Assembly (NCBI RefSeq): GCF_003334315.1
Contig: NZ_QOWR01000089.1
Strand: one strand, 5' to 3'
DNA length: 10,264 nt
Origin: Escherichia coli
GTDB lineage: Bacteria > Pseudomonadota > Gammaproteobacteria > Enterobacterales > Enterobacteriaceae
Positions 6,903-8,048 of this stretch are shown here, one piece after another. Below the pieces are notes generated by a model. It made no database searches. It was not told the DNA's origin and saw only the letters and a program-made list of their open reading frames with translations. Every line of letters starts with the position of its first letter. The first letter of the stretch is position 1. The translations under genes and the position numbers were made by a program.

Positions 6903-6944
6903 GAATGGTTCAAAATTGCTACAATTTTGAACCATTCCAGTTTT
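6903..6944 (+). terminator. Rho-independent terminator after yqeG (long perfect hairpin)
   Basis: Perfect 16-bp inverted repeat gaatggttcaaaattg / caattttgaaccattc (6903-6918 and 6922-6937) followed by cagTTTTcat, beginning 11 bp after the yqeG stop. Confidence 0.7.
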
Positions 6945-7291
6945 CATAATGTTCATTCGTTATTATTCCGCACTATCACTTCCCTCATCATATCCTAGTA
7001 TTATCAGTTATTTAAACACACAAAGAGATCTGAACATCTTAAATAAGACTATTTAAGATGCATAACTTAGATTCGCAAGATATCTTCCGGTCATTCAAAA
7101 ACAATTTGCGATATAGATATTCTCATACCATGAGATAGTTATCTGAACCACCCTCAACCAGGTAAGATTAAATCAGTGAAACATAATCATATTTAATAAC
7201 GAGAAATGCATTTTAAAATGTCTTAATCAGAATTATAGCAAATACAGATTAATCGCAATTTTTCCCAGCAAAATTACAAAATCATGGTGTA

Positions 7292-7320
7292 TTGACATCA
7301 TCAATCACCAATGAAATTAT
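7292..7320 (+). promoter_or_regulatory. Candidate sigma70 promoter for yqeH
   Basis: Perfect -35 TTGACA (7292-7297), 17-bp spacer, -10-like AATTAT (7315-7320). Sits ~30 bp upstream of the yqeH RBS agggagg. Confidence 0.35.
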
Positions 7321-7351
7321 GCAATTATATACGGATAGGGAGGTTCTTAAC

Positions 7352-7984
7352 ATGGGGCTTTGTAGTCGTTATAAAAGTCTTACATGCAATAGTTGCTCAA
7401 TGCATTGCCAAATAATGCCAGAAGAGTCACCGCGTTTGCAGTACTGCGCAAACTCGTGTTTTTGTATGTGGCCCGAAGAAAGTTCATATTTTAATCGTGG
7501 TGTGGTAGAAGGTATCTTAACAAAAAACCACAATGCGAGATTAAGCGGATATATTTTTGTCGATTTTTCAGTAAGTTTTTTACGTCTATTCCTTGAAAAA
7601 TACTGGATTGACTATCTTGCAAGTACTGACATGGGGATTGTTTTAGTCAGCGACCGCAATATGCAATCGTTAGCTAATTACTGGCGAAAACACAACTCAG
7701 CAATATCTGCTGTCATATATAATGATGATGGTCTTGATGTTGCCAATGAAAAGATCAGACAACTATTTATTGGTCGTTATTTATCATTTACCAGAGGTAA
7801 CACATTAACTCAGATGGAATTCACCATAATGGGGTATATGGTTTCTGGTTATAATCCATATCAGATTGCTGAAGTTCTGGATATGGATATCCGTAGCATC
7901 TACGCGTACAAGCAACGAATCGAAAAGAGAATGGGTGGTAAAATAAACGAATTATTTATTCGTTCACATTCGGTCCAACATTGA
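7352..7984 (+). CDS. yqeH: LuxR/FixJ-type HTH transcriptional regulator YqeH with Cys-rich N-terminus, 210 aa
   Basis: C-terminal LuxR-type HTH (LTQMEFTIMGYMVSGYNPYQIAEVLDMDIRSIYAYKQRIEKRMGG). Start assigned to the ATG at 7352 (RBS agggagg 8 nt upstream), not the TTG at 7292 used by the ORF track. Confidence 0.85.
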   Translation: MGLCSRYKSLTCNSCSMHCQIMPEESPRLQYCANSCFCMWPEESSYFNRGVVEGILTKNHNARLSGYIFVDFSVSFLRLFLEKYWIDYLASTDMGIVLVSDRNMQSLANYWRKHNSAISAVIYNDDGLDVANEKIRQLFIGRYLSFTRGNTLTQMEFTIMGYMVSGYNPYQIAEVLDMDIRSIYAYKQRIEKRMGGKINELFIRSHSVQH

Positions 7985-8018
7985 TACTCAACGACCAGCC
8001 AGAATCATACTCTGTTTA

Positions 8019-8048
8019 TACGGGCATTTATTGAAATGTCCGTATTTT
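8019..8048 (+). terminator. Rho-independent terminator after yqeH
   Basis: Stem tacgggcatt / aatgtccgta (one G-U pair), loop tattga, followed by TTTT (8045-8048). Confidence 0.6.

What the first reader, a model, noticed from the sequence alone, without database searches (positions are those of the whole stretch)
7352..7984. YqeH: LuxR-type HTH fused to a cysteine-rich N-terminal region
The first ~40 residues (MGLCSRYKSLTCNSCSMHCQIMPEESPRLQYCANSCFCMW) contain seven cysteines, including CxxC and CxC spacings. This is unusual for a LuxR/FixJ-family regulator, which normally carries a receiver or autoinducer-binding domain. It suggests a metal-binding or redox-sensing input domain.
Basis: seen in the sequence. 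Interest (0 to 1): 0.5.

Follow-up and report, generated by a model that had tools for sequence, protein, structure and literature searches.

The report
Conserved four-cysteine cap on regulator YqeH
The E. coli virulence-island regulator YqeH really does begin with a cysteine-rich stretch, and four of its cysteines are conserved in distant relatives that control adhesin genes, which points to an undescribed metal-binding cap on a response-regulator-like transcription factor.

Summary
yqeH (7352-7984, +) encodes 210 aa, and all seven cysteines (4, 12, 15, 19, 32, 36, 38) lie in the first 38 residues.

- **Start codon.** A -35 box, an extended -10 box, a Shine-Dalgarno site and the ATG are invariant across Escherichia and Citrobacter. 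Codons 2-40 are under purifying selection (dN/dS 0.01-0.27).
- **Cysteine conservation.** C12, C15, C19 and C32 form C-x2-C-x3-C-x12-C. They are the most conserved residues in 36 homologues that fall to 22% identity.
- **Cysteine count.** Among 94 family representatives, the number of cysteines before the conserved WP is 2 or fewer, or 4 or more, never 3.
- **Other cysteines.** C36 and C38 are specific to the YqeH clade. C4 is specific to Escherichia.

A single metal site, most probably structural Zn, is the best reading. An Fe-S or redox sensor is not excluded. Metal binding is inferred, not shown. The motif is also present in Klebsiella EcpR but absent from E. coli EcpR.

The parts
7292..7297 (+). 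-35 hexamer TTGACA of the putative yqeH promoter
   Evidence: Consensus scan gives 10/12 matches with TG. ATTGACA is invariant in 9 Escherichia/Citrobacter loci while the flanks vary.
7312..7320 (+). Extended -10 element TGaAATTAT
   Evidence: Found by the consensus scan. TGAAATTAT is invariant across Escherichia/Citrobacter. It implies a transcription start near 7327-7331, so 7352 is the first AUG on the mRNA (inference).
7338..7343 (+). Shine-Dalgarno GGGAGG, 8 nt upstream of the ATG
   Evidence: Read from the sequence. It is identical in eight of the nine aligned Escherichia/Citrobacter loci (C. sedlakii has GGGGGG), and L003 and L005 carry AGGAG/GGGAG at the same distance.
7352..7984 (+). 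yqeH CDS, 210 aa plus stop
   Evidence: Translation, PGAP annotation, and orthologues matching residues 1-208 by tblastn.
7352..7459 (+). N-terminal Cys-rich cap (aa 1-36). Core ligand candidates are C12 (7385-7387), C15 (7394-7396), C19 (7406-7408) and C32 (7445-7447). C4 (7361-7363) is not conserved outside Escherichia.
   Evidence: C12, C15 and C19 are invariant and C32 is at least 90% conserved in 36 homologues. dN/dS is 0.01-0.27, with TGT/TGC synonymous swaps. The AF2 model gives pLDDT 83-89, a beta-hairpin at 10-12/20-22 and a helix at 27-31.
7460..7771 (+). Receiver-like central domain (EcpR_N, aa ~37-140). It includes C38 (7463-7465) in strand beta1, the invariant W40-P41, and D71 in FVDFS. 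The clade-specific C36 (7457-7459) lies just before strand beta1, at the end of the N-terminal cap part above.
7802..7936 (+). LuxR/GerE-type helix-turn-helix DNA-binding domain (aa 151-195; helices run to ~204)
   Evidence: Pfam GerE E 6.6e-5. The family profile matches the HTH domains of RcsB, NarL, VraR and GerE. Foldseek matches full-length NarL/FixJ regulators.

Best explanation
YqeH is an orphan, response-regulator-like transcription factor with three parts.
1. A ~36-residue N-terminal cap whose four conserved cysteines (C12-x2-C15-x3-C19-x12-C32) coordinate one metal ion, most probably a structural Zn2+.
2. An atypical receiver-like domain (EcpR_N).
3. A LuxR/GerE HTH that binds DNA.

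C32 sits a fixed 7 residues before W40 at the end of strand beta1. The metal knuckle would therefore pin the N-terminal hairpin and helix onto the start of the receiver-like domain and stabilise the active fold or oligomer.

Shown here: the start codon, translation of the stretch, conservation of the cysteines, and the domain architecture. Inferred: metal binding, the identity of the metal, and the capping role.
For: - **Start and translation.** The -35, extended -10, SD and ATG are invariant across Escherichia and Citrobacter. A stop codon lies immediately upstream of the ATG in the Shimwellia-like locus L003. NG86 dN/dS for codons 2-40 is 0.01-0.27, like the rest of the gene, with synonymous TGT/TGC swaps at the Cys codons.
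- **Conservation.** In 36 homologues (22-82% identical) the only invariant columns are M1, C12, C15, C19, P41, A108 and E156, and C32 is at least 90% conserved.
- **Family spread.** 27 of 89 full-length 50%-identity representatives carry C-x2-C-x3-C-x(7-16)-C before the conserved WP.
- **Cysteine count.** The count upstream of W40 is bimodal (0:38, 1:11, 2:8, 3:0, 4:17, 5:7, 6:11, 7:2). When the C32 position is empty, a fourth Cys appears elsewhere (P0092, P0111, P0108).
- **Structure.** AF2 with a 94-sequence alignment models residues 1-40 at pLDDT 83-89. C12 and C15 sit at a beta-hairpin turn, a knuckle-like arrangement. AFDB models of homologues at 23-43% identity (ranks 9-50) superpose over about 155-215 alignment columns, most of them about 195-210, with TM mostly 0.8-0.9.
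- **Receiver-like domain.**
Against: - No metal was measured, and I had no access to model coordinates, so clustering of the four sulfurs is not verified.
- The spacing CxxCxxxC...C is not the classical two-knuckle zinc ribbon (CxxC...CxxC).
- About 60% of family representatives lack the motif, including E. coli EcpR, so the cap is not essential to the family's core function.
- AF2 with a shallow alignment left residues 1-61 below pLDDT 50.
- Many E. coli strains carry truncated or frameshifted yqeH alleles, so selection in E. coli is not uniform.
Confidence: 0.6

Rival explanations
1. The four cysteines ligate an Fe-S cluster, a redox-active Zn or a rubredoxin-like Fe centre. The cap would then be a true sensory input for O2, ROS, NO or iron that switches the regulator, by analogy with the N-terminal Cys cluster of FNR.
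For: It rests on the same conservation evidence as the Zn reading. The protein has no partner kinase nearby and an atypical receiver, so another input is needed. Family members sit next to adhesin or fimbrial operons, whose expression commonly responds to the environment. The YqeH clade has two extra cysteines, C36 and C38.
Against: The spacing matches no Fe-S regulator motif I know of (FNR Cx2Cx5C...C, SoxR, IscR, NsrR, Wbl), and this comparison is from memory. No homology to such regulators was found in Pfam, NCBIfam or PDB searches. The predicted compact beta-hairpin knuckle is more typical of mononuclear sites. Many family members, including E. coli EcpR, work without the cap.
Confidence: 0.22
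2. The conserved cysteines do not bind metal. They form structural or regulatory disulfides, or are simply conserved packing residues of a small N-terminal subdomain.
For: No metal evidence exists. CxxC pairs can act as thiol-disulfide switches.
Against: This is a cytoplasmic DNA-binding protein, so stable disulfides are unlikely there (general knowledge). The strict count of '4 or more, never 3' and the relocation of the fourth Cys fit tetra-coordination better than two disulfides or packing.
Confidence: 0.1
3. The Cys-rich stretch is an annotation artefact. The true start would be the internal Met39 (MWPEE...), as called for Citrobacter koseri (195 aa) and some E. coli entries (172 aa), or the upstream TTG at 7292.
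For: Some database entries start at M39 (P0010, P0023. W1ETC3, A8AP74). Others extend upstream (P0134, P0192). The ORF is open from TTG 7292.
Against: Codons 2-40 are under purifying selection. The ATG and SD are conserved, and the invariant promoter elements lie inside the upstream extension. A stop codon lies directly before the ATG in L003. The motif persists in homologues at 22-40% identity. The AF2 model of residues 1-40 is confident.
Confidence: 0.03

Closest known systems
EcpR/MatA, regulator of the E. coli common pilus operon (NCBIfam NF047921; Pfam EcpR_N PF27348 + GerE)
   Same: Same family. The best NCBIfam hit is E 1e-19 over YqeH residues 31-202. EcpR_N is precomputed on all YqeH homologues. 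Both have a receiver-like domain plus a LuxR HTH. Family members sit directly upstream of adhesin operons.
   Different: The score of 71 bits is far below the 300-bit equivalog cut-off. E. coli EcpR (181 aa) lacks the CxxCxxxC triad and keeps only one Cys, in a similar position to C32. YqeH lies in the ETT2 island next to yqeI/yqeJ, not next to a pilus operon. The Klebsiella pneumoniae regulator upstream of ecpABCD does carry the full Cys4 motif.
Atypical or orphan NarL/FixJ-class response regulators (CsgD, VpsT, MrkE, RcsB, EvgA)
   Different: There is no Pfam Response_reg hit. The conserved WP replaces the usual acidic pair after beta1. No adjacent kinase is present. None of these solved structures is known to me to carry an N-terminal Cys4 cap.
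Small Cys4 zinc modules fused to bacterial regulators, and single-loop structural zinc sites such as the alcohol dehydrogenase lobe Cx2Cx2Cx7C (recalled from memory; a lead, not tested)
   Same: Four conserved cysteines lie within ~20 residues. The first pair sits at a beta-hairpin turn with a small residue (S/G/A) before the second Cys.
   Different: The spacing C-x2-C-x3-C-x12-C is not the canonical CxxC...CxxC ribbon. No sequence or profile match to any zinc-finger family was found.
FNR-type N-terminal Cys cluster ([4Fe-4S] oxygen sensor), as a functional analogy only
   Same: An N-terminal cluster of cysteines sits in front of a regulatory domain and an HTH in an enterobacterial transcription factor.
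   Different: The fold (CRP family) and spacing (Cx2Cx5C plus a distant Cys) differ. No homology was detected.

Membership tests
LuxR/FixJ (GerE) HTH regulators | C-terminal GerE-type helix-turn-helix domain | tested here: met
   Pfam PF00196 at residues 151-195, E 6.6e-5. A profile of the family matches the HTH domains of RcsB, NarL, GerE and VraR.
EcpR_N family (PF27348) | EcpR_N domain preceding the HTH | tested here: met
   PF27348 is precomputed on 99%-identical proteins and on all homologues and is named EcpR_N. The local Pfam copy lacks this model.
EcpR equivalog (NCBIfam NF047921) | Whole-protein score at or above the curated cut-off of 300 bits | tested here: not met
   71.2 bits, aligned from residue 31. 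YqeH is a paralogue, not EcpR.
EcpR equivalog (NCBIfam NF047921) | Position directly upstream of ecpABCDE | tested here: not met
   yqeH lies between yqeG and yqeI at the ETT2 border.
Response-regulator receiver (REC) domain | Flavodoxin-like alternating beta/alpha receiver fold | tested here: met
Response-regulator receiver (REC) domain | Phospho-acceptor Asp at the end of beta3 | tested here: inconclusive
   The nearly invariant D71 (FVDFS) aligns with the EvgA phospho-acceptor Asp in the profile alignment. Phosphorylation was not tested.
Response-regulator receiver (REC) domain | Sequence membership (Pfam Response_reg), acidic pair after beta1, conserved Thr/Ser and Lys | tested here: not met
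   No Response_reg hit even at E <= 10. The invariant W40-P41 follows beta1. The Thr/Ser and Lys positions were not individually checked.
Response-regulator receiver (REC) domain | Cognate histidine kinase | tested here: not met
   The neighbours are a permease (yqeG) and ToxR-like yqeI and yqeJ. No kinase lies within about 8 kb on either side.
Cys4 metal-binding (zinc-knuckle or ribbon-like) module | Four conserved Cys ligands | tested here: met
   C12, C15 and C19 are invariant and C32 is at least 90% conserved in 36 sequences. The Cys count is never 3, and the fourth Cys relocates when missing.
Cys4 metal-binding (zinc-knuckle or ribbon-like) module | Four sulfurs within coordination distance in 3D | not testable with these tools
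   The model md6943660dcc0 is confident, but its coordinates are not exposed.
Cys4 metal-binding (zinc-knuckle or ribbon-like) module | Stoichiometric bound metal | not testable with these tools
   Requires ICP-MS or a PAR assay on purified protein.
Fe-S cluster transcriptional sensors (FNR, SoxR, IscR/NsrR, Wbl) | Homology or the characteristic Cys spacing of one of these families | tested here: not met
   No Pfam, NCBIfam or PDB sequence hit to any of them. The spacing differs, by comparison from memory.

The most novel reading that the evidence does not exclude
The Cys4 cap could be a sensory metallocentre: an Fe-S cluster, a rubredoxin-like Fe, or a redox-labile Zn. A large set of enterobacterial adhesin and virulence-island regulators would then be kinase-independent 'one-component response regulators'. 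These include YqeH, Klebsiella EcpR, proteins annotated as RmbA-family, and integron-borne Orf3. They would read oxygen, oxidants or iron directly and switch fimbriae, autotransporters and ETT2 genes accordingly.
Probability: 0.2. Interest if true: 0.7.

Novelty: new variant of a known kind. Interest (0 to 1): 0.45.

Why it matters
YqeH affects motility, biofilm formation and virulence in avian pathogenic E. coli (PMC9014576; PMC11068852). Its relatives sit in front of fimbrial and autotransporter adhesin loci in Klebsiella, Enterobacter, Pluralibacter and a Shimwellia-like organism. How these orphan regulators receive signals is unknown.

A conserved Cys4 site gives a concrete and cheap experimental handle: metal analysis and Cys-to-Ser mutants. 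It also separates the family into cap-bearing and cap-less branches, for example Klebsiella EcpR against E. coli EcpR. Finally, it corrects start-codon calls that drop the motif in several database entries.

If the site is only structural Zn, this is a useful annotation refinement. If it is sensory, it would explain the environmental control of several adhesins.

Tried and rejected
- **AF2 with the 9-sequence orthologue alignment.** Residues 1-61 came out below pLDDT 50 and were uninformative. This was superseded by the 94-sequence run.
- **Second word-indexed homology search with the 36-sequence profile.** It returned no new cap-bearing sequences.
- **Two giant proteins with repeated matches to profile positions 10-56 (P0119, P0198).** They contain almost no cysteine and are spurious repeat matches.
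- **Upstream TTG start at 7292 (230-aa ORF).** Rejected because the invariant -35 and -10 elements lie inside it.
- **Internal Met39 start.** Rejected on dN/dS and deep conservation.
- **Lipobox or signal reading of MGLC.** Rejected because there is no hydrophobic signal segment and C4 is not conserved outside Escherichia.
- **Terminator-like hairpin inside the Cys-coding region (7434-7453).** The arms are not conserved at the DNA level in Citrobacter (codon alignment), so it is treated as chance.
- **Literature searches.** Searches for YqeH plus cysteine, EcpR/MatA plus cysteine, RmbA and KpfR found no description of the motif. The library is partial, so absence is not proof.
- **Rfam scan of the window.** No hit.

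Full report
**Where the window comes from and what the gene is**

The window is E. coli chromosome: araE-kduD-kduI-yqeF-yqeG-yqeH-yqeI-yqeJ. 5341 of 5426 complete E. coli genomes match some part of the 7000-8300 stretch. 3739 genomes hold at least 80% of it. From about 6800 onwards the GC content falls from ~50% to 31-41%, which is consistent with the AT-rich ETT2 island border ('ETT2' from PMC9014576 and PMC11068852).

**Checking the observation**

Translation reproduces the quoted 40 residues. The cysteines are at 4, 12, 15, 19, 32, 36 and 38, and the remaining 172 residues contain none.
- Only 15 of 100,000 residue shuffles reach 7 Cys in a 40-residue window.
- The binomial P is 4e-4 even when using the gene's T/G-rich base composition.

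**Is the stretch translated, and is 7352 the true start?**

Four lines of evidence bear on it.
- **Translation signals.** The ATG is preceded by GGGAGG at a distance of 8 nt. The ATG is conserved and the SD is conserved or near-conserved in Escherichia sp., E. whittamii, six Citrobacter loci and an E. fergusonii-like contig (one Citrobacter locus has GGGGGG). The two most distant orthologues have AGGAG/GGGAG at the same distance. In L003 a TAA stop sits directly in front of the ATG.
- **Promoter footprint.** An alignment of the 120 nt upstream shows that ATTGACA (-35, 7291-7297), TGAAATTAT (extended -10, 7312-7320), ATAGGGAGG and ATG are invariant, apart from one base of ATAGGGAGG in C. sedlakii. 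The spacer and everything further upstream vary. That puts the transcription start near 7327-7331. The first AUG of the mRNA is then 7352, which excludes the upstream TTG-7292 extension that some gene callers used.
- **Selection.** Nei-Gojobori counts for codons 2-40 give dN/dS of 0.01-0.27, the same range as the rest of the gene. The conserved Cys codons show repeated TGT/TGC synonymous swaps.
- **Homology.** tblastn matches in other species begin at residue 1.

Database entries that start at Met39 are therefore start-call artefacts. They include the 172-aa E. coli and 195-aa C. koseri proteins.

**Are the cysteines conserved?**

This was the first refutation test.
- **Orthologues.** Among nine full-length orthologues (49-82% identity), C12, C15, C19, C32 and C36 are invariant. 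C38 is lost only in the 49% orthologue. C4 occurs only in Escherichia.
- **Wider family.** A profile search of 1.84 billion representative proteins found 177 relatives. Of the 89 full-length representatives, 27 carry C-x2-C-x3-C-x(7-16)-C just upstream of a conserved Trp-Pro.
- **Deep alignment.** In a 36-sequence alignment reaching 22% identity, the only invariant columns of the whole protein are M1, C12, C15, C19, P41, A108 and E156. C32 is at least 90% conserved.
- **Cysteine count.** In 94 representatives the number of cysteines upstream of the W40 column is bimodal: 0 (38), 1 (11), 2 (8), 3 (0), 4 (17), 5 (7), 6 (11), 7 (2). Where the C32 position is empty, a fourth Cys appears 7 residues after the triad (P0092, P0111). 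One member has CxxCCxxC.

'Four or none', together with ligand relocation, is the classical signature of a tetra-coordinate metal site. C36 and C38 are clade-specific, with C38 lying in strand beta1. C4 is incidental.

**Architecture**

Pfam finds only the GerE HTH at residues 151-195. All homologues also carry the newer Pfam family PF27348, EcpR_N. The best NCBIfam match is EcpR, at 1e-19 from residue 31, but it falls far below the equivalog cut-off.

With a 94-sequence alignment, AF2 gives a confident model (mean pLDDT 92.7, pTM 0.89). The first 40 residues score 83-89 and form strands 10-12 and 20-22, a helix at 27-31, and strand 37-40. Alternating beta/alpha units follow, and then the HTH helices.
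- Foldseek matches full-length NarL/FixJ-type response regulators.
- A family profile hits EvgA at 1e-11, with the family's nearly invariant Asp (YqeH D71 in FVDFS) aligned to the EvgA phospho-acceptor Asp.

YqeH is thus a Cys4 cap, an atypical receiver-like domain and a LuxR HTH. There is no Pfam Response_reg hit and no nearby kinase, so it belongs with the orphan or atypical response regulators.

**Family context**

Relatives that carry the cap sit directly upstream of adhesin loci.
- Chaperone-usher operons lie next to P0040 (the Shimwellia blattae protein or a close relative, by matching length and identity) and P0064 (Pluralibacter).
- An AIDA-type autotransporter lies next to two divergent cap-bearing paralogues in Enterobacter.
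- In Klebsiella pneumoniae the regulator directly upstream of ecpABCD carries the full motif.
- E. coli EcpR (181 aa) lacks the CxxCxxxC triad and retains only one Cys in a similar position to C32. Its upstream ORF is too short to encode the triad.
- AFDB neighbours include proteins named RmbA and integron-linked 'Orf3/QacEdelta1 fusion' proteins at ~41% identity.
- AFDB models of homologues at 23-43% identity (ranks 9-50) superpose on the YqeH model over about 155-215 alignment columns, most of them about 195-210, with TM mostly 0.8-0.9. They therefore share the N-terminal fold.

**Mechanism**

Shown here:
- the start codon;
- translation of and purifying selection on the cap;
- the four-Cys core;
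- the three-part architecture.

Inferred: the four thiols bind one metal ion.

I favour a structural Zn2+, for three reasons. The first Cys pair sits at a beta-hairpin turn with a small residue before the second Cys, which is knuckle-like. The module is small. C32 keeps a fixed 7-residue distance to W40 of strand beta1, as expected for a cap that packs on the receiver-like domain.

An Fe-S, rubredoxin-like or redox-labile centre acting as a sensor is not excluded. It would provide the missing input for a kinase-less regulator. However, the spacing matches no Fe-S regulator family I know of, and cap-less family members function, E. coli EcpR among them. I could not measure S-S distances because model coordinates are not exposed.

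**What is known and what is new**

Published work on YqeH covers phenotypes of a yqeH deletion in APEC (motility, biofilm, adherence, virulence) and regulation of espE3. It makes no mention of domains or cysteines. I found no paper describing a Cys motif in EcpR/MatA, RmbA or KpfR, though the library is partial. No family member has a solved structure.

I rate this a new variant of a known kind: a LuxR-type atypical response regulator with a previously unremarked, family-wide Cys4 cap. Interest is moderate. It is a solid and easily testable hypothesis. A structural zinc site would be unsurprising, and only the sensory reading would be notable.

Noticed in passing
L021 6001-6618 (Klebsiella pneumoniae) versus L023 1818-2360 (E. 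coli ecpR): The Klebsiella regulator directly upstream of ecpABCD has the full C-x2-C-x3-C-x12-C motif. E. coli EcpR lacks the triad and keeps a single Cys in a similar position to C32. The best-studied family member thus appears to be a truncated, cap-less form.
   Followed up: partly
window 6903-6937 (+): A strong intrinsic-terminator-like hairpin (16-bp stem, then a T-run) lies immediately after yqeG. It separates yqeG from the yqeH promoter region.
   Followed up: no
window ~6800 onwards: GC content drops from ~50% to 31-41% from the yqeG/yqeH intergenic region onwards. This is consistent with the border of the horizontally acquired ETT2 island.
   Followed up: no
window 7434-7453 (+): A terminator-like hairpin (GTTTGCAGTACTGCGCAAAC followed by a T-rich tail) lies inside the Cys-coding region, at codons 28-37. 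Its arms are not preserved in the Citrobacter orthologues, so it is probably chance.
   Followed up: partly
yqeH alleles in other E. coli: Many E. coli carry disrupted yqeH. Examples are truncated products of 117-156 aa in clusters with hundreds of members, frameshifted N-termini (P0011, P0014, P0015), a 4-aa deletion between C19 and C32 (P0003), and an IS903B insertion in strain RCAD0514, which is otherwise 100% identical to the window. The gene is decaying in parts of the species.
   Followed up: partly
L019 4949-5554 (-) and 6001-6636 (+): Two divergently transcribed EcpR_N paralogues, both with the Cys4 motif, flank an AIDA/pertactin-type autotransporter gene in Enterobacter. This recalls rmbA next to misL in Salmonella SPI-3 (from memory).
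   Followed up: partly
AFDB hits A0A077JIL6, B3VMX6 and Q4LAU9; P0060: Family members at ~41% identity to YqeH are annotated 'Orf3/QacEdelta1 fusion protein' on Klebsiella, Providencia and E. coli resistance elements. A copy of this regulator type therefore travels with class 1 integron regions.
   Followed up: no
window 7601-7603 (codon 84): The window's allele has Tyr84 (EKYWIDYL). The large E. coli clusters have Asp (EKDWIDYL). The most populated cluster representative also carries a 2-aa 'DM' duplication near residue 177.
   Followed up: no
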